Positions 18,788 to 45,069 are shown, counted from the first letter of the stretch. The stretch: 64,000 nucleotides of DNA from Collinsella aerofaciens (GCA_047014445.1 JBKXPS010000002.1:88505-152504), one strand, 5' to 3'. The notes: generated from the letters alone by a model not told the origin. Program-made: numbers and translations.

Positions 18788-19288
18788 CTATCTGCCATCT
18801 ACGCGCTTGGCCATCCAGGCATGAGGCTGGCCCTCGTCTTCGTAGTCCACCGGGGCAATCTGCGTGTAGCCCGCCTTGGCATAGAGCGGCAGCACGTATT
18901 CCTGAGCATGCAGCTTAATGAGCTTGGCGCCGGCATCACGCGCGCACGTATCACTGGCCTCGACAATCTTGCTCGCCAAACCGCGACGGCGCATGCTCGG
19001 CAGCACGGCCACGCGCCCCATAATGTAGGTCTCCCCCGCCGCGACACCTTCGTCCAAGTCGCACGCCGGCGACACCGGAGCCTCTGCGTCAGCCGCGCGC
19101 TCAAGCTCTTCGGGAAACACGCGCGAGCAACCGGCAAGCTCGCCGTCTACATAGAGCGTCACATGAATGCAGTTCGGATCCTCGTCGATAGCGTCGAACT
19201 CATTCTCGTAGCCCTGCTCGTCCATAAAAACGACGCGGCGCACCAACGCCGCGTCATCAAAGCATCCCGTCTTAAGTTGGATATCCAT
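18788..19288 (-). CDS. GNAT N-acetyltransferase (ElaA/YjcF-like)
   Basis: VRRVVFMDEQG, GRVAVLPSMRRRGLA, LHAQ and EGQPHAWM motifs. Confidence 0.9.
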   Translation of the reverse strand: MDIQLKTGCFDDAALVRRVVFMDEQGYENEFDAIDEDPNCIHVTLYVDGELAGCSRVFPEELERAADAEAPVSPACDLDEGVAAGETYIMGRVAVLPSMRRRGLASKIVEASDTCARDAGAKLIKLHAQEYVLPLYAKAGYTQIAPVDYEDEGQPHAWMAKRVDGR

Positions 19289-29993: not shown

Positions 29994-30256
29994 GGGTTCG
30001 AATCCCCAGCGCCCTTTCTCGATAATAAAAAAGGGCCCCCGATGGGACCCTTCTTTAAAGTTAAACTGGCGGAGAGCTGGGGATGTCCGGACATGCTACG
30101 CATGCCCTCCGGCTTCAAAGCCTGGCGGCTTTTCGCCCACGGGCTACAAACGCTTTCGCGTTTGCTTAACGCCCGTGCCCTCTCGGGTTCGAATCCCCAG
30201 CCTCCTTTCTCCGCACAAAAAAGGGCCCCAAATGAGACCCTTCTTCAAATTCGTAC
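29994..30256 (-). repeat. tRNA-Ser-linked 190-bp structured unit plus partial second unit
   Basis: tRNA 3'-end copy 30067-30084; antisense T-arm copies 30185-30201 and 29994-30010; duplicated terminator hairpin. Confidence 0.85.
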
Positions 30257-30347
30257 TGGCGGAGAGCTGGGGATTCGAACCCCAGATGCCCTTTTGGGGC
30301 ATACTCGCTTAGCAGGCGAGCACCTTCGGCCTCTCGGTCAGCTCTCC
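30257..30347 (-). tRNA. tRNA-Ser(GCT)
   Basis: Cloverleaf with long variable arm; anticodon arm CTCGC-CTGCTAA-GCGAG; CCA encoded. Confidence 0.96.
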
Positions 30348-30361
30348 GTAACAGCCGTTCT

Positions 30362-30390
30362 ATAGTAACCAAACAGCCTAAGATGGGCAA
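30362..30390 (-). promoter_or_regulatory. Sigma70-type promoter of tRNA-Ser
   Basis: TTGCCC-N17-TACTAT. Confidence 0.6.
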
Positions 30391-30439
30391 GAGGAAATTT
30401 TCTAATTGCCTAGCATCCTTTCCTCATTGGAAGCTTCGC

Positions 30440-32881
30440 CTACCCCAGCGAGCGGTTGAGGGAGCCGAGCTCGTCGTTGCCCATGGTGCGCCACATTTGG
30501 AAGATGCAACCGCGTGCCAGGAAAAAGAAGCCGTTGTCGACCAGTTGAACAGCGGCATCTGCCAGCTGATTCGTCACGGCGGACACTGGCGGCAGCTCGA
30601 GTCCAGCCTTGCGAATGGTCTCGACCGCTTCCTCGAACGTCGGAGGCTCGCTGACGCCCATCTCGTTCATAAGGCCCTGCATTTCTTCCAGCGCGCTGCT
30701 GCCCGACTCCTCGCCACGTGGCACCAGACGGTAACAAGCCAGCGCAAGGTCGAGCTGATCGCAATTCCAATAGGCAAACGCCAGGCGATAGAACAGGTAG
30801 CCGATTGCAGAGCGATCGCTGGCAATACGTAGGCCGTGGCGCGCCACCTCGATAATCTCGTCAAAGCGCTCCAGACGCGCAAGAACGTTGATGAGCGCAA
30901 AGTGCGATTGCATGGACGAGCGCGCCAGATCGTAAAGATGGCGCACCTCGGGCAGCGCTCGTTCAAAGTCCTCTTGCTCGACGTAAAAGCTGCAGATCTC
31001 GTGCTGGGCAAAGTACAGCGCATCGGGCGCACGAAGGATTCGCACAGAGCGGTCTTCTTCCAACACCGGTAGCACCATGCGCACCAGCTGGTTATCGCAA
31101 AACTGCGTTTGAACCGGACCTGTCGCCAAAAGCTCGGCAACGGCGCACTTAGCCTCCAACTCCTCAACAAGACGGGAAAAGCCTTCAAAAGCACCTGTAC
31201 GGTCGACTTTTGCCTGCTCGCGCAATTCAACAACACGGGCCACGTATGGGTCGTCGTCCTCTTCCATGACCTCCAACTCGTCAGCCGTATCGGCAAGCAG
31301 CAAATCGCGCAGCGCCGGCGGAAGCGTGCGATGGTCATCACGCGGACGAGCATGAACCTCCGCAGGTTCAATCGTCTCCGGAGCAGTTGACTCATACGCC
31401 TCAAGTACACGCTTGCACGGCATATCGTCCATGTCCATGCTCTCAAGATCCTTGGCGACAGGCACGCAATCGGCCAGATAGGCCGCGCGCCCAAAGAAAT
31501 ACGTTGCGACAACGCGCTCGCCCTGCTCACTGTCGGGAGCAGCAATCTGCACATAGCAGCGCGTGATGCAGGTGCCCGCGGCAAAACACGCTGCCGCAAG
31601 CGTGAGTGACACGCGCGCATCGTGCTCCGCGGCCCAGATCGCGCGCGTGTCCTCGTCCAGCTCGCGCCAGGCGTCATCCTGAGCGTCGTATTCACGTTGC
31701 GGCATGGCATCAACGACAGACTGCCCAAACCGAACGAGCATAATCCCCTCGGCAACGTTTGCCCGATAGGTATAGTCGAGCCGCGTGACCACGTTGAGCG
31801 CCTCAACGATTCGCGCAAAACGGGTGCGCACGTCCCACTCGCCGCCCGGCTGGCAAGCCACCGTACCCGGCTTGCCCCACGGGTTATCGCTCGAAGCCGT
31901 ATCGAGCAGTCGGGGAACATCGTTGGTCGTCTTGGCGATATGCCACGCATCAAAGAGCGCGCAGCCCTCAAGGCTCGGCGAGGATGCCGCAGGGACCAAT
32001 CCGGCCCCGATGCGCTCAAGGATGCCGGAGAGGCGGTTGAGACGGCACTCGATGGCAAGCAGCATGTCAATCTCGTCCTGGTCCAACAGGCTACGATCAA
32101 AATTGAGATAGAAAATCTTTGAGCGATCAATGCGAGCCAGGCTCATCTCGGACTTGGCAGCGATGGTGCGCAGGCGGGGCAAGTCAATTTCGCTCATAAG
32201 GGCGGCGGCATAGCGCTCGATACCGCTCGGATTCTCGGCATGGTCAACGCGGTAGAGCAGCGTCTCGATAGCATCGGGGAGCGGTGCCGTGTTAAAGCCC
32301 AAAAACACCTCGACCGGCTCGGGCAACTTTACGAGCTTGATCTTGTCGACAACGTTTTGCATACCCTCGTCGAGTCCGCCGGCGTCCGCCGTGTTCACAA
32401 TAGCGCTTTCGGAGTTGGCAAATATCACGTAGCGCAAGAACATCGAGGCCATGAACTCGCCGTAAGGAAGGGCGCGGGTCGAATTCCATGTCTCGTGGTC
32501 GGACTGCTCGCGCATGGGGCCTTCGGGAGAGCCGGCAGTTTGCGCACACGCGCGCATTGCACCGTTGGCTTCCCTTACCATAATCTCACCAATACTGGAA
32601 TCCGACTCGTCAAGGACCAGTTCCATGTCGGGATCGTTGGGCAGCGGAGCCTCGCAGACGGGGCGGTCCACCTTGTACACCTCACCCGAAACGCTTACGT
32701 AGCCCAAAAGCGACACATGACTTTTGCCAACGAATTCGACGACATAACAAGATTCATGCTGGTCCTCGCCAAAGAGTTTCCAGACCACGCCATATGAGCG
32801 CCCCGCAGGCTGCTCGGGCATCGCCGGAAAGCGCTTTTTGGGATCGAGAAACCTGAGCCTGTATGTCGGACGCTCTGCCAC
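30440..32881 (-). CDS. Hypothetical protein with C-terminal TPR-like repeats
   Basis: 813 aa acidic ORF; helical TPR-like pattern (YLFYRLAFAYWNCDQLDLALACY). Confidence 0.75.
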   Translation of the reverse strand: MAERPTYRLRFLDPKKRFPAMPEQPAGRSYGVVWKLFGEDQHESCYVVEFVGKSHVSLLGYVSVSGEVYKVDRPVCEAPLPNDPDMELVLDESDSSIGEIMVREANGAMRACAQTAGSPEGPMREQSDHETWNSTRALPYGEFMASMFLRYVIFANSESAIVNTADAGGLDEGMQNVVDKIKLVKLPEPVEVFLGFNTAPLPDAIETLLYRVDHAENPSGIERYAAALMSEIDLPRLRTIAAKSEMSLARIDRSKIFYLNFDRSLLDQDEIDMLLAIECRLNRLSGILERIGAGLVPAASSPSLEGCALFDAWHIAKTTNDVPRLLDTASSDNPWGKPGTVACQPGGEWDVRTRFARIVEALNVVTRLDYTYRANVAEGIMLVRFGQSVVDAMPQREYDAQDDAWRELDEDTRAIWAAEHDARVSLTLAAACFAAGTCITRCYVQIAAPDSEQGERVVATYFFGRAAYLADCVPVAKDLESMDMDDMPCKRVLEAYESTAPETIEPAEVHARPRDDHRTLPPALRDLLLADTADELEVMEEDDDPYVARVVELREQAKVDRTGAFEGFSRLVEELEAKCAVAELLATGPVQTQFCDNQLVRMVLPVLEEDRSVRILRAPDALYFAQHEICSFYVEQEDFERALPEVRHLYDLARSSMQSHFALINVLARLERFDEIIEVARHGLRIASDRSAIGYLFYRLAFAYWNCDQLDLALACYRLVPRGEESGSSALEEMQGLMNEMGVSEPPTFEEAVETIRKAGLELPPVSAVTNQLADAAVQLVDNGFFFLARGCIFQMWRTMGNDELGSLNRSLG

Positions 32882-33002
32882 GAAATATCACCCTGATCGG
32901 TCGTTGAGAGAAGGAGTGGTCGCGGATGGGCCGCGACACCTACTCGGAATCTTACACGAGTCGACAGGAAATCGTCCCTTTGGACGAAAGCACTCAAGCT
33001 GG

Positions 33003-33234
33003 CGTAAAAGAAAAGCCCCCGTTGCCGGGAGCTTTAATCTCAAATGGTGCGGCGTATAGGATTCCGCGCATCCGCTGCGCGGATCCGCACCGGCTTCGCC
33101 CGCCTTCCGGCGTGCTCGCCCGCGGGCTAAAAACGCTCCGCGTTTTCTTGGCGCTCGCGCCTCGACCGAGGTTCGAATCCATGCGGTGCTTACGTAAAAG
33201 AAAAGCCCCCGTTGCCGGGAGCTTTAATCTCAAA
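33003..33234 (-). repeat. tRNA-Arg-linked 190-bp structured unit (copy 1)
   Basis: 62-bp perfect direct repeat 33003-33064/33193-33254; 3'-end copy 33045-33064; antisense T-arm 33169-33180. Confidence 0.9.
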
Positions 33235-33311
33235 TGGTGCGGCGTATAGGATTCGAACCTATGACGTTCTGATTCGTAGTCAGACCCTCTATCCAGCTGA
33301 GGTAACGCCGC
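33235..33311 (-). tRNA. tRNA-Arg(ACG) copy 1
   Basis: 77-nt cloverleaf; anticodon arm TCTGA-CTACGAA-TCAGA; CCA encoded. Confidence 0.96.
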
Positions 33312-33323
33312 GACTTGTTGATT

Positions 33324-33352
33324 ATTATGCACATCGACTGAATAAAGGTCAA
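33324..33352 (-). promoter_or_regulatory. Sigma70-type promoter of tRNA-Arg copy 1
   Basis: TTGACC-N17-CATAAT. Confidence 0.7.
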
Positions 33353-33431
33353 GCATTTTTCGAAAAAAGTTATTGAATTTGATTTTTACTCATTTTGACC
33401 ACTTGATGCGATCTTCGACGCATCGCGATAT

Positions 33432-33659
33432 AAGAAAAGCCTCCGTTACCGGAGGCTTTAAAATTCAATTGGTGCGGCGTATAGGATTCCGCGCATCCGC
33501 TGCGCGGATCCGCACCGGCTTCGCCCGCCTGCCGGCGGACTCGCCCGCTCGCTAAAAACGCTCCGCGTTTTCTTGACGCTCGCGCCTCGAACGAGGTTCG
33601 AATCTCCGCAATGCCCCCGTAAAGGAAAAGCCCCCGTTTCCGGAGGCTAAAAACTCAAT
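33432..33659 (-). repeat. tRNA-Arg-linked 190-bp structured unit (copy 2)
   Basis: 3'-end copy 33470-33489; antisense T-arm 33594-33604; same core as copy 1. Confidence 0.9.
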
Positions 33660-33736
33660 TGGTGCGGCGTATAGGATTCGAACCTATGACGTTCTGATTC
33701 GTAGTCAGACCCTCTATCCAGCTGAGGTAACGCCGC
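33660..33736 (-). tRNA. tRNA-Arg(ACG) copy 2
   Basis: Identical to copy 1. Confidence 0.96.
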
Positions 33737-33748
33737 AACGCACGGATT

Positions 33749-33777
33749 ATTATGCACGTGACCCCTCGATGGGTCAA
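33749..33777 (-). promoter_or_regulatory. Sigma70-type promoter of tRNA-Arg copy 2
   Basis: TTGACC-N17-CATAAT with a spacer different from copy 1. Confidence 0.7.
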
Positions 33778-33818
33778 GCGACAATTTGGAAAAATTTTAC
33801 GAAGTGATGATTAAGATA

Positions 33819-34090
33819 CTCGCGCCTCGACCGAGGTTCGAATCCATGCAGCGGTGGCATAAAAGAAAAGCCCCCGTTGCCGGAGGCTTTCAATTTCAAT
33901 TGGTGCGGCGTATAGGATTCCGCGCATCCGCTGCGCGGATCCGCACCGGCTTCGCCCGCCTGCCGGCGCGCTCGCCCGCGGGCTAAAAACGCTCCGCGTT
34001 TTCTTTACGCCCGCGCCTCGACCGAGGTTCGAATCCATGCGGTGGCGGCATAAAAGAAAAGCCCCCGTTGCCGGAGGCTTCAAGTTCAAT
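33819..34090 (-). repeat. tRNA-Arg-linked 190-bp structured unit (copy 3) plus partial second unit
   Basis: 3'-end copy 33901-33920; antisense T-arm 34025-34036 and again at 33834-33845. Confidence 0.9.
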
Positions 34091-34167
34091 TGGTGCGGCG
34101 TATAGGATTCGAACCTATGACGTTCTGATTCGTAGTCAGACCCTCTATCCAGCTGAGGTAACGCCGC
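34091..34167 (-). tRNA. tRNA-Arg(ACG) copy 3
   Basis: Identical to copy 1. Confidence 0.96.
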
Positions 34168-34244
34168 AGCGCAAGACATATAAAACCACTTTAGCTTATT
34201 GGAGTCAAGCACAATCTCAAACTTTTTTGTGGAACGCAGTTTTG

Positions 34245-34622
34245 TCATGCTGCTCCGCATATACCGCTGTTCCCCGTACGATCGATTGGCTTTTCGATCA
34301 CGTCAAACTTGGCATCAAGTTCACTCAGGAGCGATCTCACCCGCTGGGCACAATCATAATCGGCAAACGAGATGCTCAGCATGCGCGCGACCTGGTTGGA
34401 AGTCCCAACTCCATAGAAGTGCTCCAGCGCCACAAGTCCCTCGTGCGTCACAAAGGTCTCGACCACATGCGGCGACTCCTCAAAGCACCATTGTGTCAAC
34501 GGACCCTCACTCGTCTGCCGAACCACCAAGCCACCCATACCCGACGGCTCACACGTTACAAGCAGGTACTCCCCGCCCTCGTCGCTCTCAAACAAAACCA
34601 CCCGATCATCAAACAGCTCCAT
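34245..34622 (-). CDS. Hypothetical protein (125 aa)
   Basis: RBS GAAAGGGGA before ATG; plausible composition. Confidence 0.75.
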   Translation of the reverse strand: MELFDDRVVLFESDEGGEYLLVTCEPSGMGGLVVRQTSEGPLTQWCFEESPHVVETFVTHEGLVALEHFYGVGTSNQVARMLSISFADYDCAQRVRSLLSELDAKFDVIEKPIDRTGNSGICGAA

Positions 34623-34681
34623 CGCGTCCCCTTTCTCTCGCTCTTATTTAGCAAAAGCATAGCAGGTAGATGGCTGTATAC

Positions 34682-34695
34682 AGAACAGTTGTTCG
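34682..34695. promoter_or_regulatory. Gram-positive-type SOS (LexA) box candidate
   Basis: AGAAC-AGTT-GTTCG matches GAAC-N4-GTTC, 60 bp upstream of the 125-aa ORF. Confidence 0.55.
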
Positions 34696-34795
34696 TGTGT
34701 TTTCTATTGAGCTGTCCGCACGGCATGGTATGGACCTGCGCACGAAATAGGGCGCCCCCGAAGGAGCGCCCTTGCATATCCCCTATGCAGCCAAC

Positions 34796-36079
34796 TTACG
34801 CGACCGGCTCGATCTTCTCGAGACCACCCATGTAAGGACGCAGGACCTCGGGAATCGTGATGGTGCCGTCGGCGTTCTGGTAGTTCTCCAGAATGGCGGC
34901 CATGGTGCGGCCGGCCGGCAGGCCGGAACCGTTGAGCGTGTGCAGGTAGCGCGAACCCTTGAAGTTCTCGGGGTCGCGGTACTTGATGTTGGCGCGGCGG
35001 GCCTGGAAGTCGCCGCAGTTGGAGCAGGAGCTGATCTCCTTGTAGGCGTTGTAGCTCGGCAGCCAGACCTCGACGTCGTAGGTCTGACGGGCAGAGAAGC
35101 CCAAGTCGCCGGTGCACAGGCTAATCACGCGATACGGAAGGCCCAGCTGCTGCAGCAGGTACTCGGCCTCGGCGGTCATGCTCTCGAGCTCCTCGTCGGA
35201 CTCCTCCGGCTTAGCGAACTTGACCATCTCGACCTTGTCGAACTCGTGCTGACGGATAATGCCGCGGGTGTCGCGACCGGCGGAACCGGCCTCCTCGCGG
35301 AAGCAGGGGGTGAAGGCGGTGTAGCGGCGCGGCAGGGTGTCGGCGTCGAGGACCTCGCCGGCGTGCAGGTTGGTGAGCACGACCTCGGCGGTGGGGATCA
35401 GGAAGTTGTCGCCCGAGACGTGGTAGGCGTCGTCCTCGAACTTGGGCAGCTGACCCGTGCCAAACATGGTCTGACGCTTGACGACGATGGGCGGCCACCA
35501 CTCCTTAAAACCACGGCTGGTGTGCGTATCGAGGAAGAAGTTGATGAGGGCGCGCTCCAGGCGGGCGCCGGCGCCACCGAGAACGGTAAAACGGCTGCCG
35601 GAGAGCTTGTTGCCGCGCTCGAAGTCGAGGATGTCCAGATCGGTGCCCAGATCCCAATGCGGCTTAAAGTCGAAGTCGAACTCGCGCGGGGTGCCCCAAC
35701 GACGGCGCTCAATATTCTCGTCCTCGTCCTTGCCGTACGGCGTGGCCTCGCAAGGAATGTTGGGCAGGTGAGCCATGAAGTCGTACTGCTCCTGCTCGAG
35801 AGCAGTACGGCGCTCGGCCAGACCGTCAATCTTCTCGTTGACGGCGCGCACGGCCTCCTTGGCGGCCTCGGCCTCGTCCTTCTTGCCCTCCTTCATCAGG
35901 GCGCCGATCTTCTTGGACTCGGCGTTGCGCGTAGCCTGGAGCTCCTCGACCTCGGTGATGACGGCACGGCGCTCGTCGTCGAGCTCAAAGAACTTCTCGC
36001 GATCCCAAGACGTCTGGCGGTTAGCCATGGCGACATCGATGGCATCGGGGTTCTCGCGAACAAACTTGATATCAAGCAT
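34796..36079 (-). CDS. serS: Serine-tRNA ligase
   Basis: [10 protein letters not shown] start; [36 protein letters not shown] and HTLNGSG motifs. Confidence 0.97.
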
Positions 36080-36190
36080 TAGATCCTCCGGCGATATACA
36101 TTCCATTTAGGTTGCAACCTTGTACATGTATGGGCAAGTATATACTTATGAGCGTTTACGACCCAACTCAACTACGCAAGAAGGCACCCA

Positions 36191-36364
36191 ATGGACGCAG
36201 TTTTTTCCTTTTTGTTTGGCACCCGCACCGGTTTTGCCATCCTTTTCGCCGGCGGCATCCTGTTATTTGCGATTCTTGCCTTTGTAATGGAGAAGCGTAC
36301 CCATAAGATGTACGTCGACCGCGGACCCAAGTCCGAGGATGAGGAAGACAGCTTCTGGGACTAA
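36191..36364 (+). CDS. Small membrane protein (57 aa), absent from the ORF track
   Basis: MDAVFSFLFGTRTGFAILFAGGILLFAILAFVMEKRTHKMYVDRGPKSEDEEDSFWD; RBS AAGAAGG; one TM segment plus acidic tail. Confidence 0.75.
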   Translation: MDAVFSFLFGTRTGFAILFAGGILLFAILAFVMEKRTHKMYVDRGPKSEDEEDSFWD

Positions 36365-36415
36365 CCTGCCAAAAAGGGACAGGTTTATTTTGGTCTGTTT
36401 TATCTGGGCAAACGC

Positions 36416-36459
36416 AAGCGCCCCGCAACTGGAATTGAGCCAGTTGCGGGGCGCTTTTC
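36416..36459. terminator. Bidirectional terminator between the small ORF and proC
   Basis: AAGCGCCCCGCAACTGG / CCAGTTGCGGGGCGCTTTT. Confidence 0.75.
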
Positions 36460-36522
36460 GCTAAAAGGACAAAACCGCAGAAAATACCTGCCAAAAATAA
36501 ACCCGTCTTTTTTTGGTCGGTT

Positions 36523-37293
36523 TTACTGGAGAGTTGCGTCGATTGCCTTGACCAGGGCGCTGCGCATGCCAGCGTCCTCGAGCGCAACGACGCCCTTGAT
36601 GGTGGCACCACCGGGCGAGCATACGGCATCCTTCATCGCCGCAGGATGCTGGCCAGTTGCAAGCTGCAGCTTTGCCGTACCTAGCACCATCTGGCTCACA
36701 ATGCGATAGGCATCGGCACGCGGGATACCGTGCTTGACCGCCGCATCGCCCAGGGCCTCGATTGCCATGGCGACAAATGCCGGAGCGCAACCACCCACCG
36801 TGCCGCCCACAAACAGCAGGCTCGTATCGAGCTCGACCACCGCACCGAGTTTGCCAAGCAGATCAAGCACCACGGCGCTCTGCTCATCACTAAGCGTGGA
36901 AGCCTTCTCGCAAGCGATGACGCCCTCGCCCACCGAAACCGGTGTGTTGGGCACCGTCGAGATATGCGCGACGCCCGGCAGGACCTGCTCCCACTTGGCA
37001 CTGTCCCAGGTCCAGGCAACCGACAGAACGACCTTTTTGGCAAGAGCATCCTTGAGCGGGGCGAATACCTTCTCGATCATGTACGGTTTGACCGCAGCGA
37101 CCACGATATCGGATGCGGCGACAACCTCGGCGGCATCGTGGCAGGCGACCATGCCGCGCGCCTCGCAGCGCTCAACCAGTGCGTCGTAGCGACCCGCGCA
37201 GGCGCACATGTCGCTCGCAGCTACACCGGCAGCGATCCAGCCATCGGCCATAGCGCTCGCCATATTGCCAAAACCGACAAATCCAATCTTCAT
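36523..37293 (-). CDS. proC: Pyrroline-5-carboxylate reductase
   Basis: KIGFVGFGNMA, AVKP, PNTP and VCSPGGATIKG motifs. Confidence 0.95.
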   Translation of the reverse strand: MKIGFVGFGNMASAMADGWIAAGVAASDMCACAGRYDALVERCEARGMVACHDAAEVVAASDIVVAAVKPYMIEKVFAPLKDALAKKVVLSVAWTWDSAKWEQVLPGVAHISTVPNTPVSVGEGVIACEKASTLSDEQSAVVLDLLGKLGAVVELDTSLLFVGGTVGGCAPAFVAMAIEALGDAAVKHGIPRADAYRIVSQMVLGTAKLQLATGQHPAAMKDAVCSPGGATIKGVVALEDAGMRSALVKAIDATLQ

Positions 37294-37366
37294 ATCTCAT
37301 AGTCCTCTCAGACACGCTCTTCAAAACGAAAGCTATTGTCCCACGCCATTGTTTCGTATTGCCGAC

Positions 37367-37837
37367 CTATTTGTGATACGGCTCGCCACGGCTGATCTTG
37401 CAGGCGCGGTAGATTTGCTCCAGCAGCACCACGCGCGCCAAGTTATGCGGCAAGGTAATGCGTCCAAAGCTGAGCATCTCGTCGGCACGGGCACGCACGG
37501 CATCGCTCACGCCATCCGAGCCGCCGATCACAAAGGCGATGTCGCTGTTGCCTCGCAGCATGAGGTCATCGAGACGGGCCGAGAGCTCCTCACTCGAACG
37601 CTCCTTGCCCTCGATAGCCAGCAGGATCACATGCGCTCGAGACGGCAATGCAGCAAGAATTGCCGCCCCCTCCTTGTCGCGCGCGGCATCCACGCCGCCC
37701 GCCTTAGCCGGGTCGATATCGGCCACCTCGCGGATATCCACCTTGGCATAGGCGCCTAGGCGCTTGGTGTACTCAGCGCACGCGTCCTTCCAAAAGCGCT
37801 CTTTGAGCTTGCCAACACAAACGACGGTGTATTTCAC
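37367..37837 (-). CDS. rlmH: 23S rRNA m3Psi1915 methyltransferase
   Basis: VGKLKE, FVIGGSDG, LPHNLARVVLLEQIYRA and PYHK motifs. Confidence 0.96.
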   Translation of the reverse strand: MKYTVVCVGKLKERFWKDACAEYTKRLGAYAKVDIREVADIDPAKAGGVDAARDKEGAAILAALPSRAHVILLAIEGKERSSEELSARLDDLMLRGNSDIAFVIGGSDGVSDAVRARADEMLSFGRITLPHNLARVVLLEQIYRACKISRGEPYHK

Positions 37838-37843
37838 GCGTGC

Positions 37844-38782
37844 CTACTCCTTTGACTCGTTCTGAACCTTACCGGCAGCCAGCATCTGCTCGAACATAGA
37901 GGCCGACTGCGAAAAGTCGCTCGGCAGCACGACCGTCGAGGTTTTACCCGTGCGAGCGAACTCCGTCATCATCTCGGACCACTGCGTAAACATGAACAGT
38001 TGGTTGGCCTCGTCATTGCCGACACCCGTCTCTTGGATGATCTCGAGCGAATCTTTGATACCCAGCGCGATGGCCTTGCGCTGGTTGGCGATGCCCTCGC
38101 CCGCCTTTTCCATAGCCTCAGCCTCGGCGGTCGCCTCGGTGACGCGCTTGATGCGGTCGGCCTCAGCGAGCTCCTGTGCCGCAGCGCGCTTGCGCTGGGC
38201 AGCGTTGATGTCGTTCATGGAGTTCTCAACCTCGGTCGGCAGTGCGATTTTGGTGATGAGCGTCGACACGAGGGTGAAGCCGTAGGCGGCCATCTGCTCG
38301 GAAACGGTAGCGTTGACATCCTTGGCGATGTCATCCTTCTTGGCAAAGACCTCATCGAGTGTGTAGACGGGGATCGAAGAGCGCAGGGCGTCGGTGATGA
38401 AGTCACGCATCTGGTCGACGGGCTCCTGCAGCATGTAGTAGCTCTTGTAGATACCCGAATCTGCCGGGCCGGCGCCCATGTCATAGCTCACGTGGTACTG
38501 AGCAGAGACCTCAAGGCCGATGGTCACGTTGTCCTGGGTCTTAACGTCGATGCCAAAACCGTTTTTCATGGTGCGCAGGCTCACCGTGGCGGCCTTGCGG
38601 TCGATCACGGGCACCTTCATGTGGAAGCCCGCGTTGACGATGCGGTTAAACTTGCCCAGGCGCTCGATGATCACGGCATGCTGTTGTTCAACGACATAGC
38701 AGGCGTTGGGAAGCAGCAGCAACAGGATGATGATGGGAATCAAAAGGCTGGTAAGGGCGGCGATGATACCGGACAACAGCAT
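37844..38782 (-). CDS. SPFH/Band 7 domain protein
   Basis: N-terminal TM segment; IIERLGKF, KTQDNV and EAEA repeats. Confidence 0.92.
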   Translation of the reverse strand: MLLSGIIAALTSLLIPIIILLLLLPNACYVVEQQHAVIIERLGKFNRIVNAGFHMKVPVIDRKAATVSLRTMKNGFGIDVKTQDNVTIGLEVSAQYHVSYDMGAGPADSGIYKSYYMLQEPVDQMRDFITDALRSSIPVYTLDEVFAKKDDIAKDVNATVSEQMAAYGFTLVSTLITKIALPTEVENSMNDINAAQRKRAAAQELAEADRIKRVTEATAEAEAMEKAGEGIANQRKAIALGIKDSLEIIQETGVGNDEANQLFMFTQWSEMMTEFARTGKTSTVVLPSDFSQSASMFEQMLAAGKVQNESKE

Positions 38783-38853
38783 GGTCTCTCCTCTGATAGG
38801 CACACGTTGGCATTAGGATACCCGCACGAAGCAGCAACGTGACATCAACAAGA

Positions 38854-39087
38854 GGCCCATAACAAAAAGCTCCCATTGCTGGGAGCTCTTTCAATCAATG
38901 GTGCGGGCGAAAGGACGTCCGCGTATCCGCTTCGCGGATCCGCACCGGCTTCGGCCGCCTGCCGGCGTCCTCGCCAGCTCGCTAAAAACGCTCCGCGTTT
39001 TCTTTACGCTCGCTCCTTCACAGGTTCAAGTCCCTGTGATGGGCCCATAACAAAAAAGCTCCCATTGCTGGGAGCTCTTTAATTTAA
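38854..39087 (-). repeat. tRNA-Leu-linked 189-bp structured unit
   Basis: 3'-end copy 38899-38916; antisense T-arm 39022-39033 (AGGTTCAAGTCC); core nearly identical to the Arg units. Confidence 0.9.
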
Positions 39088-39174
39088 TGGTGCGGGCGAA
39101 AGGACTTGAACCTTCATGGGGTTGCCCCCATACGGACCTGAACCGTACGCGTCTGCCAATTCCGCCACGCCCGC
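39088..39174 (-). tRNA. tRNA-Leu(CAG)
   Basis: 87-nt cloverleaf with long variable arm; anticodon arm TACGG-TTCAGGT-CCGTA; CCA encoded. Confidence 0.95.
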
Positions 39175-44983: not shown

Positions 44984-44996
44984 AGTCAATTCAAGG

Positions 44997-45069
<73 letters not shown>

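What the first reader, a model, noticed from the sequence alone, without database searches (positions are those of the whole stretch)
29994..39174. tRNA-tailored 190-bp structured element: shared core flanked by an antisense T-arm and a duplicate 3' end of whichever tRNA it follows
Seen: five tRNA genes of three identities (Ser-GCT, Arg-ACG x3, Leu-CAG) are each followed, in transcript direction, by a terminator hairpin, an antisense copy of that tRNA's own T-arm, a ~100-nt homologous core, a copy of that tRNA's last 18-20 nt with CCA, and a second terminator. The antisense part tracks the host. On the + strand it reads AGGTTCGAATCC at Arg, AGGTTCAAGTCC at Leu and GGGTTCGAATCCCCAGC at Ser, each matching that tRNA. 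The core is shared across tRNA types. Established: 3'-end duplications occur at integrase att sites and in E. coli tyrT-type repeats, but I know no description of a shared core with host-matched antisense T-arms. Inference: either a non-autonomous micro-island or ssDNA element targeting the T-loop, or a cis-acting module affecting tRNA folding, processing or att-site availability (for example a decoy for phage or ICE integration).
Basis: partly seen in the sequence, partly recalled or inferred. Interest (0 to 1): 0.9.

Follow-up and report, generated by a model that had tools for sequence, protein, structure and literature searches.

The report
RtT-like structured RNA behind tRNA genes
Many tRNA genes of this gut actinobacterium are followed by a conserved, folded ~150-base RNA module whose two ends are copied from the neighbouring tRNA, built the same way as the little-studied E. 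coli RtT RNAs, whose function is still unknown.

Summary
All five tRNA genes named are followed by terminator, antisense T-arm, shared core, a copy of tRNA nt 59-76 and a second terminator, as 190-nt tandem units. The family is much larger. I found 14 units in this genome, including one behind the tmRNA gene. It occurs in 35 of 36 sampled species of the genus and 49 of 150 genomes of the order. All 97 evaluable distinct copies lie behind a same-strand tRNA or tmRNA gene.

It folds as an RNA on the tRNA strand, with a five-helix junction, GNRA loops and strong covariation. Orthologous copies are more conserved than the neighbouring ORF.

It is not without precedent. E. coli RtT RNAs (Rfam RF00391) behind tyrT/V, proK, serX and lys tRNAs have the same plan, and each is tailored to its own tRNA. 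Rfam's RtT model does not detect this family, and core homology tests fail.

I read it as a new, expanded variant of a known kind: an RtT-like trailer RNA. It is probably co-transcribed with the tRNA and gains or loses units by repeat recombination. Host matching is probably kept by local copying. The cellular function remains inferred. I found no support for a micro-island, ssDNA element or att decoy.

The parts
30257..30347 (-). host tRNA-Ser(gct)
   Evidence: ARAGORN; Rfam tRNA
30213..30256 (-). Ser unit: linker and first hairpin/T-run (T1)
   Evidence: sequence; direct repeat D10
30067..30212 (-). Ser element: leader, antisense arm (30185-30201, 17 nt complementary to the host T-arm), core helices P2-P5, copy of tRNA nt 59-76 (30067-30084)
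   Evidence: CM hit 113 bits
30027..30066 (-). Ser unit: repeated linker and second hairpin/T-run (T2)
   Evidence: D10, 86% identical to T1 region
29994..30010 (-). start of a further, truncated unit (antisense arm only)
   Evidence: D12 and I15; sequence
34091..34167 (-). host tRNA-Arg(acg), first of three tandem gene+element units (period 425-431)
   Evidence: D1
33901..34081 (-). T1 (34058-34081) and element (33901-34052) of the first Arg unit
33821..33891 (-). T2 (33866-33891) and a truncated further unit (antisense arm and start of core)
   Evidence: (D3)
33749..33777 (-). sigma-70-like promoter of the second tRNA-Arg gene. No such site lies between T1 and any element.
33660..33736 (-). 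host tRNA-Arg(acg), second
33436..33648 (-). T1 (33629-33648), element (33470-33621), T2 (33436-33459)
33235..33311 (-). host tRNA-Arg(acg), third; promoter-like site at 33324-33352
33012..33225 (-). T1 (33202-33225), element (33045-33196), T2 (33012-33035). The 53 nt of 3' copy plus T are identical in both copies.
   Evidence: (D4)
39088..39174 (-). host tRNA-Leu(cag)
38864..39087 (-). T1 (39057-39076), element (38899-39049; antisense arm carries the host's unusual loop as ACTTGAA), T2 (38868-38887)
   Evidence: (D4); 149.5 bits
44995..45069 (-). tRNA-Phe(gaa): an unoccupied site in this genome (tRNA plus one terminator). The same site holds one unit in 20 of 28 related loci.

Best explanation
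This is a family of RtT-like trailer RNAs: structured non-coding modules of about 150 nt encoded just downstream of tRNA and tmRNA genes on the same strand.

Shown:
- Each module is closed by a helix (P1) between a 5' arm antisense to the host's nt 59-68 and a direct copy of the host's nt 59-76.
- The inner part of the antisense arm (complement of nt 51-58) pairs with a degenerate sense copy, GGGYRCG, to form a GNRA-capped hairpin (P2).
- Three further helices (P3-P5) branch from the point that corresponds to T-loop position 58/59.
- The fold is conserved with compensatory changes, and orthologous copies are under purifying selection.
- Units are gained and lost precisely, consistent with recombination between the direct repeats (nt 59 to the end of the terminator).

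Inferred:
- The module has no promoter of its own and is transcribed by read-through of the tRNA's terminator.
- Because its 3' end and trailer are the same sequence as the tRNA's, the tRNA 3'-maturation enzymes trim it to a CCA end. This releases a stable RNA that displays the host tRNA's 3' strand. The E. coli rttR gene is annotated as ending at that CCA.
- Host matching of both arms is kept by local templated copying (gene conversion or template switching) from the tRNA a few dozen bases away.

Speculative:
- The released RNA acts in trans as a mimic of the tRNA's acceptor/T-stem end, as has been suggested for E. coli rtT RNA in the amino-acid starvation response.
For: Position and host range:
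- 14 full-length units in the own genome (E below 1e-12). They lie behind 11 called tRNA genes, one tRNA-Lys copy broken by an N-run, and the tmRNA gene.
- 97 of 97 evaluable distinct copies lie behind a same-strand tRNA/tmRNA, across 17 host species of tRNA.
- Found in 35 of 36 sampled species of the genus and in 49 of 150 good-quality genomes of the order. One of 140 genomes elsewhere in the phylum has it, again behind a tRNA.

Structure and strand:
- RNAalifold gives a consensus in which 13 of 26 pairs carry compensatory changes within one genome.
- On 47 distinct sequences 93.2% of cells are paired, against 78.7% in shuffles. 20 of 26 pairs change on both sides, and slid controls give 34-59%.
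- G-U pairs at three stem positions and GNRA-type loops read correctly only on the tRNA strand.

Selection:
- At the Leu-cag locus in 18 species the element is 96.2% identical, with 121 of 151 columns invariant. The intergenic DNA after T2 is 68.0% identical and the next ORF 79.5%.

Transcription:
- No promoter-like site lies between T1 and the element.
- RNA-library contigs of 4 of 4 runs from two studies bridge tRNA nt 53-76, T1, the antisense arm and the core (33508-33684).

Unit turnover:
- At tRNA-Phe, 20 loci are filled and 8 are empty. Filled equals empty plus exactly one 186-nt unit. The empties are scattered among filled relatives on a flank tree.

Host tracking:
- Two elements in genome G038 have nearly identical cores, but both arms differ at nt 59, exactly as their Gly-tcc and Gly-ccc hosts do.
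- The complement of T-loop nt 57 follows hosts with A57, although this weakens the internal pair.

Precedent:
- E. coli K-12 has 16 RF00391 matches behind tyrT/V, proK, serX, and the lys/val and arg/ser clusters. I read the sequences of 12 of these. In 7 of the 12 (proK, lysQ, lysV, serX x3, tyrV), a host-matched antisense arm, a sense T-arm half and the last 18-19 nt of the upstream tRNA were all seen. A unit between tyrT and tyrV has a near-matched arm. The four units inside the lys cluster lack the antisense arm.
- rttR is annotated as ending at the copy's CCA.
Against: - No RNA ends, strand or abundance could be read. Only contigs were available, and DNA carry-over in the libraries was not excluded.
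- RF00391 finds nothing in this genome at E up to 10, and no Rfam family covers the element.
- My model hits E. coli RtT units at only 8-16 bits. Chance hits of 12-14 bits occur in mukB and yicI.
- Core-only HMM tests in both directions do not beat shuffles: 421 of 500 shuffles score at least as high, and Mann-Whitney p = 0.88. Kinship with RtT therefore rests on architecture only.
- The helix between the leader and the acceptor strand is weak or missing in many copies, so the module is not a full mimic of the acceptor/T minihelix.
- Gene conversion is inferred, not observed.
- How a unit first reaches a new tRNA is unexplained.
- The predicted minimum-energy fold of the whole co-transcript does not keep tRNA and element apart. 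It pairs the antisense arm with the genuine T-arm.
- The trans-acting function is speculation. The primary paper on rtT RNA could not be read.
Confidence: 0.6

Rival explanations
1. A non-autonomous mobile element aimed at the T-loop. An RNA or DNA intermediate inserts at position 58/59 or just behind the terminator of tRNA genes and copies target sequence into both of its ends. A host or helper enzyme would carry out the step.
For: - The same core subfamilies sit behind unrelated tRNAs.
- Copy number runs from 0 to 19 per genome, and distribution across the families of the order is patchy.
- Arrays hold 1.3 to at least 3 units.
- Occupancy differs between species at tRNA-Phe.
- The junction always lies at nt 58/59, and the duplication runs to the end of the terminator.
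Against: - No TnpB.
- The only reverse-transcriptase-like gene is split and lies elsewhere.
- Integrase genes are not next to elements.
- The Phe polymorphism fits repeat-mediated loss of exactly one unit, with empties polyphyletic.
- Fixed orthologous copies are under purifying selection, which a selfish insertion would not predict.
- In genome G038 the tailored 3' copy lies inside shared element sequence, so it is not a target-site duplication.
- At tRNA-Phe, 19 of 20 copies follow the genomic sequence, which lacks A76, so they were not copied from mature tRNA.
Confidence: 0.15
2. A cis-acting antisense device. In read-through transcripts the antisense arm pairs with the genuine T-arm of the upstream tRNA, and the downstream sense copies compete for it. 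Transcripts that escape the first terminator are thereby misfolded, marked or re-routed, which ties tRNA output to termination efficiency.
For: - The antisense arm follows host T-loop bases (nt 54-58) that have no partner in the 3' copy.
- In predicted minimum-energy folds of the whole co-transcript, the antisense arm pairs with the genuine T-arm and the tRNA's 5' acceptor strand pairs with the distal copy. For Ser the energy is -159.4 kcal/mol, z = -9.9. The Leu centroid fold is similar.
- RNA contigs bridge tRNA, terminator and element.
Against: - These are thermodynamic predictions only. A tRNA folds and is cut out co-transcriptionally.
- The three conserved core helices are not needed for such a device.
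- For Arg the arm matches only the generic 12-nt T-loop word.
- Some E. coli lys-cluster RtT units lack the antisense arm altogether.
Confidence: 0.12
3. A DNA-level feature of integration sites: either the remnant of attL/attR after decay of an island, or a decoy that alters the use of the tRNA gene as attB by phage or ICE integrases.
For: - tRNA and tmRNA genes are the classical integrase targets.
- The direct repeat starts in the T-loop and runs through the 3' end, as in many att sites (established knowledge, recalled).
- Direct repeats of 61 nt flank the insert.
Against: - Only about 128 nt lie between the repeats, and it is the same structured core at 17 different hosts.
- A true 14.7-kb island with integrase at tRNA-Arg(cct) in this genome carries no core.
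- Covariation and strand-specific RNA motifs are not expected of a DNA site.
- The distal copy lacks the 5' half of the T-arm, so it is not a complete attB.
Confidence: 0.04

Closest known systems
RtT RNA (E. coli rttR, Rfam RF00391; 178-bp repeats of the tyrT locus)
   Same: - Lies in the trailer of tRNA genes on the same strand.
- Forms tandem units of about 180-190 nt (three tandem serX units and the tyrV units).
- The closing helix joins a 5' antisense segment to a copy of the last 18-19 nt of the host tRNA, ending in CCA (Rfam consensus structure).
- A sense copy of the T-arm 5' half is interrupted after nt 58 by a GC-rich multi-hairpin core.
- The same core serves different tRNAs, with ends re-tailored to each host: Tyr, Pro, Ser and Lys in E. 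coli.
- Passages of PMC4986893 place RtT members beside Asn and Lys tRNA genes in a Pasteurellaceae species. They describe RtT RNAs as released from tRNA operon transcripts and linked to amino-acid limitation.
   Different: - RF00391 does not detect this family (0 matches at E up to 10; none).
- Core sequences show no similarity above shuffles.
- This family has an extra long hairpin (P3).
- In most copies an intrinsic terminator is inside each unit.
- The tmRNA gene is among the hosts.
- It reaches up to 19 hits per genome.
- It belongs to another phylum.
att sites of tRNA-targeted genomic islands and prophages
   Same: A direct repeat of the tRNA 3' part that starts in the T-loop, with tRNA and tmRNA genes as the shared targets.
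   Different: There is no integrase or cargo between the repeats. The intervening DNA is a conserved structured RNA. The antisense arm has no counterpart in att sites.
Guide RNAs of IS200/IS605 elements (TnpB reRNA, IscB omega RNA)
   Same: A structured scaffold followed by about 16-20 nt that match the neighbouring host DNA, so the RNA is tailored to wherever it sits (recalled knowledge).
   Different: No TnpB is present in the genome (the only match is below the cut-off). There is no transposon, and here both ends are host-derived.
Internal guide sequence of group I introns and engineered trans-splicing ribozymes
   Same: A 5' guide complementary to both sides of a junction (nt 51-58 and 59-68), followed by a structured core and then the downstream 'exon' (nt 59-76). 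This is a formal resemblance, recalled.
   Different: The core is only about 100 nt. No Rfam intron or ribozyme family matches it. No catalytic activity is known or shown.

Membership tests
RtT RNA (RF00391) | Encoded in the 3' trailer of a tRNA gene, same strand | tested here: met
   97 of 97 evaluable copies; window copies
RtT RNA (RF00391) | Closing helix between a 5' antisense segment and a 3' copy of the host tRNA's last 18-19 nt ending in CCA | tested here: met
   P1 in the consensus fold. Duplexes of 5-17 bp in 38 of 38 copies. Same helix in the Rfam consensus.
RtT RNA (RF00391) | Tandem repetition of ~180-nt units behind the tRNA | tested here: met
   Period 189-191 nt in the window. 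Up to three units elsewhere.
RtT RNA (RF00391) | Reaches the Rfam gathering score of RF00391 | tested here: not met
   No RtT match in the window at E up to 1, in 15 loci at E up to 0.1, or in the whole genome at E up to 10
RtT RNA (RF00391) | Core sequence homologous to E. coli RtT | tested here: inconclusive
   Model R1 ranks E. coli RtT units on top in 15.7 kb, but at only 8-16 bits. Chance hits of equal score occur genome-wide. Core-only HMMs do not beat shuffles.
RtT RNA (RF00391) | Released as a discrete RNA by processing of the tRNA transcript | not testable with these tools
   Only RNA-library contigs were available. They bridge tRNA and element but give no ends or strand.
tRNA-targeted integrative element (att remnant) | Integrase gene or island cargo between the direct repeats | tested here: not met
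   About 128 nt of structured core between the repeats. The 5 Phage_integrase matches lie elsewhere.
IS200/IS605 guide RNA (TnpB/IscB) | Partner nuclease gene in the genome | tested here: not met
   PF07282: one match of 21.8 bits, below the 26.3-bit cut-off. IscB was not searched.
Self-splicing intron or known ribozyme | Match to a curated catalytic RNA family | tested here: not met
   Rfam scans at permissive E-values list only tRNA, tmRNA and noise

The most novel reading that the evidence does not exclude
The arrangement is that of an intron-like exon-replacement device at T-loop position 58/59. The antisense arm would act as an internal guide that lines up the tRNA's nt 51-58 with the spare nt 59-76 carried by the element. 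Read-through transcripts, or tRNAs cut in the T-loop, could then be rejoined to a fresh 3' end. The joining would be done either by the conserved core itself or by a cellular RNA ligase. Run in reverse, the same reaction would rewrite the element's 3' end to match whichever tRNA it attacks. That would explain host tailoring in two phyla.
Probability: 0.05. Interest if true: 0.95.

Novelty: new variant of a known kind. Interest (0 to 1): 0.5.

Why it matters
RtT RNA has sat in Rfam for two decades as an E. coli curiosity without a function. This work shows that the same building plan exists in a distant phylum. That plan is a conserved core closed by an antisense copy and a sense copy of whichever tRNA lies upstream. 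Here the plan is expanded to a quarter of the tRNA genes and to the tmRNA gene, and it is under purifying selection. The plan is therefore either ancient or repeatedly invented.

In both phyla the ends follow the host tRNA, and at least once they do so to the single base. This raises a concrete, testable question: what process rewrites both arms, and what the cell gains from an RNA that displays the 3' strand of a specific tRNA. The repeats also give a ready route to changes in tRNA gene copy number, as in the three tandem Arg gene-plus-element units in this window. A curated covariance model would remove these regions from the unexplained intergenic conservation seen in gut Coriobacteriia.

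Tried and rejected
1. Retrovirus-like origin (reverse transcription of mature tRNA stopping at m1A58, which would give an 18-nt copy). Rejected. At tRNA-Phe the gene lacks A76 and 19 of 20 copies repeat the genomic ...CCACCTTG. The trailer and terminator are duplicated as well.

2. TnpB/omega-RNA-like scaffold plus flank-derived guide. No TnpB is present.

3. Dedicated reverse transcriptase. There is one split RT-like ORF pair on another contig, not linked to any element. It was not followed across genomes.

4. Mini-island with integrase. Integrases lie elsewhere, and a real island at tRNA-Arg(cct) has no core.

5. Opposite-strand tRNA-like gene. G-U pairs would become C.A mismatches and the loops would become UNNC.

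6. Homology to RtT by sequence. Core-only HMM tests in both directions gave nothing above shuffles. A genome-wide run of R1 on E. coli, under strict filters, returned only two chance hits, in mukB and yicI.

7. RNA evidence. There are no ends, no strand, and no silent-stretch control for DNA.

8. A weak CM hit inside a coding region of G015 (L057, E 0.003) has none of the anatomy and is taken as a false positive.

9. Literature. Searches found no description of this family, and none of host tailoring in RtT. The primary rtT paper (PMC329039) is not held, so what it says is recalled or taken from citing passages.

Full report
**The observation**

ARAGORN places tRNA-Ser(gct), three tRNA-Arg(acg) genes and tRNA-Leu(cag) on the - strand at the stated coordinates. 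Read in transcript direction, each gene is followed by the same series:
- a short linker and a hairpin with a T-run;
- 10-15 variable bases;
- a stretch complementary to the tRNA's own T-arm;
- about 100 nt that align across all five copies;
- a copy of the tRNA's last 18-20 nt, ending in CCA;
- the linker and hairpin again.

The repeat finder shows that this is a tandem repeat with a period of 189-191 nt. At Ser and at the first Arg gene, a further truncated unit follows the second hairpin. The terminator scan calls all six Arg hairpins. It finds promoter-like sites only in front of tRNA genes, never in front of an element. No Rfam family other than tRNA covers the region at E up to 1.

**Size of the family**

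An HMM, and then a covariance model built from the copies in this genome, find 14 full-length units. Their hosts are Ser-gct, Arg-acg x3, Leu-cag, Leu-taa, Leu-caa, Ser-cga, Gln-ttg, Glu-ttc, Val-tac (two units), a Lys-ctt copy broken by an N-run, and the tmRNA gene.

The model finds the family in:
- 35 of 36 sampled species of the genus, with 2-19 hits each;
- 49 of 150 good-quality genomes of the order, patchily across seven families;
- 1 of 140 genomes elsewhere in the phylum, where it again sits 26 nt behind a tRNA-Ser and carries a 20-nt copy.

I then pooled all fetched loci, which gave 100 distinct near-full-length copies:
- 97 have a same-strand tRNA or tmRNA upstream. Of these, 90 lie at 20-65 nt and 7 are later units of an array.
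- The remaining 3 lie at contig ends where the tRNA is cut off.
- The direct copy shares at least 16 nt with the host in 81 of 97.
- The antisense arm shares at least 11 nt with the host in 88 of 97.

Within this genome I compared each unit against 44 distinct tRNA/tmRNA sequences. The host is the best match of the 3' copy in 13 of 13 units. It is the best match of the antisense arm in 10 of 13, ties included. The antisense arm is therefore clearly tailored only where the host T-loop is unusual: Leu-cag, tmRNA, Lys-ctt and Leu-taa. For Arg it is the generic 12-nt T-loop word.

**Anatomy**

- The 3' copy starts at nt 59, or at nt 57/58 where the bases happen to fit. It directly follows a conserved CGCGGA(C).
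- The antisense arm covers the complement of about nt 51-68.
- Its outer part pairs with the 3' copy to form P1.
- Its inner part pairs with a degenerate sense version of the T-arm 5' half (GGGYRCG). This forms a hairpin, P2, capped mostly by GNRA-type loops.
- Three more helices follow: P3, P4 and P5.
  - P3 is a long hairpin around AAACGCG...CGCGTTT. It has a 7-bp extension that occurs either as a perfect helix or as a variant with tandem G.A mismatches.
  - P4 carries GNNA loops.
  - P5 is GCG-G-stem-loop-stem-A-CGC.

In other words, the module is an inverted repeat of the host's T-arm and acceptor 3' region, with the core emerging at T-loop position 58/59 of the sense copy.

Covariation is strong:
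- 13 of 26 consensus pairs change on both sides within one genome.
- On 47 distinct sequences, 93.2% of cells pair, against 78.7% in shuffles. 20 of 26 pairs change on both sides. Sliding the partners by 1-3 columns drops pairing to 34-59%. That alignment was fitted to the model, which favours the structure.
- Distant copies replace whole helices with unrelated complementary sequences. In genome G038, AAATTCC pairs with GGAATTT where this genome has CGCGGGC paired with GCCCGCG.

G-U pairs at three stem positions and the GNRA loops make sense only on the tRNA strand. The folding molecule is therefore an RNA, or at least the sense strand.

**Selection and turnover**

At the Leu-cag locus of 18 species:
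- the tRNA is invariant;
- the element is 96.2% identical on average, with 121 of 151 columns invariant;
- the intergenic DNA beyond the second terminator is 68.0% identical;
- the next ORF is 79.5% identical.

Fixed copies are thus kept by selection.

Units also come and go. I examined 28 loci of tRNA-Phe. Twenty carry one unit and 8 carry none, this genome's site at 44995-45069 among the 8. In the group closest to this genome, filled sites equal empty sites plus exactly one 186-nt unit. Empty sites are scattered among filled relatives on a tree of the downstream flank. This is what recombination between the 61-nt direct repeats (nt 59 to the end of the terminator) would produce. It needs no transposition machinery.

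**How the ends follow the host**

- In genome G038 the elements behind tRNA-Gly(tcc) and tRNA-Gly(ccc) have almost identical cores and share their own second terminator. Yet both arms differ at nt 59, exactly as the two tRNAs do. There the tailored copy lies inside shared element sequence, so it is not a target-site duplication.
- The complement of nt 57 follows hosts with A57, although this turns a C:G pair of P2 into U.G.
- At tRNA-Phe, whose gene lacks A76, 19 of 20 copies repeat the genomic sequence. The template is therefore DNA or the primary transcript, not mature tRNA.

I infer local templated copying: gene conversion for the direct copy, and template switching between the inverted T-arm copies for the antisense arm. 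This was not observed directly. How a core first reaches a new tRNA remains open.

**Transcription**

RNA-library contigs from two studies cover the elements. In 4 of 4 runs a 177-nt contig spans tRNA-Arg nt 53-76, T1, the antisense arm and most of the core. Another contig joins the end of one unit, the next promoter and the next tRNA. Depths differ several-fold along the stretch. Contigs give no strand or ends, and DNA carry-over was not controlled, so this is weak support for read-through transcription.

Predicted minimum-energy folds of the whole co-transcript do not keep tRNA and element apart. They pair the antisense arm with the genuine T-arm, and the tRNA's 5' acceptor strand with the distal copy. 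This is a prediction only. It keeps open a cis-acting or intron-like reading.

**Machinery**

- The genome has no TnpB above the family cut-off.
- It has one split reverse-transcriptase-like ORF pair on another contig.
- It has five Phage_integrase matches at four places, none beside an element.
- A classical 14.7-kb island with integrase at tRNA-Arg(cct) has a long tRNA 3'-half repeat and no core.

**Comparison with what is known**

The E. coli tyrT/tyrV locus carries 178-bp repeats annotated as rttR (Rfam RtT, RF00391). Reading it shows the same plan:
- GGGGAAGGAT, antisense to nt 59-68 of tRNA-Tyr;
- a small hairpin holding AAGGTTCGA, the sense T-arm 5' half;
- a GC-rich multi-hairpin core;
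- the last 19 nt of tRNA-Tyr.

The Rfam consensus structure closes the RNA with that antisense/copy helix. The rttR annotation ends at the copy's CCA.

RF00391 matches 16 places in E. coli K-12: behind tyrT/V, proK, serX (three tandem units), and in the lys/val and arg/ser clusters. I read 12 of these. In 7 of the 12 (proK, lysQ, lysV, serX x3, tyrV) the antisense arm, the sense half and the 3' copy all match the upstream tRNA. The unit between tyrT and tyrV has a near-matched arm. The four units inside the lys cluster lack the antisense arm. A shared core with host-matched ends at different tRNAs is therefore already present in a curated family, although I found no paper that says so.

What I saw in papers:
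- Passages of PMC4986893 place RtT members beside Asn and Lys tRNA genes in Actinobacillus. They describe RtT RNAs as released from tRNA operon transcripts and linked to amino-acid limitation.
- One passage of preprint 10.1101/2024.07.17.603846 is to the same effect.
- One passage of PMC3318445 states that rttR is encoded by a repeated unit of the tyrT operon.
- The primary paper could not be read.

**Membership**

- RF00391 finds nothing in this genome at E up to 10.
- My model ranks the E. coli units on top within 15.7 kb, but at only 8-16 bits. Chance hits of 12-14 bits occur in mukB and yicI.
- HMMs restricted to the cores fail in both directions.

The two families share their architecture. 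Common descent is not shown. I therefore file this as a new variant of a known kind, not as a member of RF00391.

**Verdict**

The finding is real, far larger than the window shows, and under selection.

The best-supported account is an RtT-like trailer RNA. It is co-transcribed with the tRNA. It is closed by host-derived arms. It is probably trimmed like a tRNA to a CCA end. It multiplies and is lost by repeat recombination, and it is kept in step with its host by local copying.

What the RNA does is not known in either phylum. Among the possibilities, a trans-acting mimic of the tRNA 3' end is my preferred guess. A cis-acting antisense device and a T-loop-directed mobile element are the main rivals.

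Noticed in passing
G000 contig C7, about 59548 to 74330 (outside the window); loci L076/L077: A classical island. An antisense-read copy of the 3' part of tRNA-Arg(cct) lies 14.7 kb from the gene, with a Phage_integrase gene (C7:60358-61008) beside it. It served here as a contrast to the 190-nt units.
   Followed up: partly
L013 about 1-215 (G000 contig C19, about 18900-19115, - strand, beyond the truncated second unit behind the tmRNA gene): The truncated second unit is followed by repeated palindromic hairpins of about 45 nt (GGGAT..GCTTTCC....GGAAAG..ATCCC). This looks like a separate REP-like repeat family.
   Followed up: no
L016 17-70 (G000 contig C19:17-70; continuation of contig C16 behind tRNA-Glu): A core-less form of the element. 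It is a perfect 9-bp hairpin of antisense arm and sense T-arm (GCCGGGATT...AATCCCGGC) with only about 18 nt between the arms. Its right arm matches the left arm rather than the host tRNA.
   Followed up: partly
G000 contig C13:54333-55866 (locus L072 657-2190): Two overlapping ORFs (232 and 298 aa) together look like one reverse transcriptase with a YCDD motif, split by a frameshift. This may be a defence-type RT. It is not linked to the elements.
   Followed up: no
G000 C3 behind tRNA-Gly(ccc), C1 inside a second tRNA-Lys(ctt), C6 inside the first Val-tac unit: Runs of N sit exactly at or next to tRNA/element repeats. Contigs C16 and C19 break inside an element. The repeats evidently disturb assembly, so copy counts are lower bounds.
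   Followed up: no
window 33003-34167: The three tRNA-Arg(acg) genes form 425-431-nt tandem units of promoter, tRNA and element. Related genomes show four or five element copies at the corresponding Arg array (G003, G021). The elements may promote changes in tRNA gene copy number.
   Followed up: partly
window 36363-36522: This stretch holds a perfect 17-bp inverted repeat with a 7-nt loop (36416-36456). It is flanked by a second, 29-nt inverted repeat that is A/T-rich at its ends. It is unrelated to the tRNA elements and probably a bidirectional terminator.
   Followed up: no
E. coli K-12 loci L149, L150, L154, L156: E. coli RtT units behind proK, serX, lysQ and lysV carry antisense and sense segments matched to their own host tRNA. 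Units inside the lys cluster lack the antisense arm. I found no statement of this in the papers searched.
   Followed up: partly
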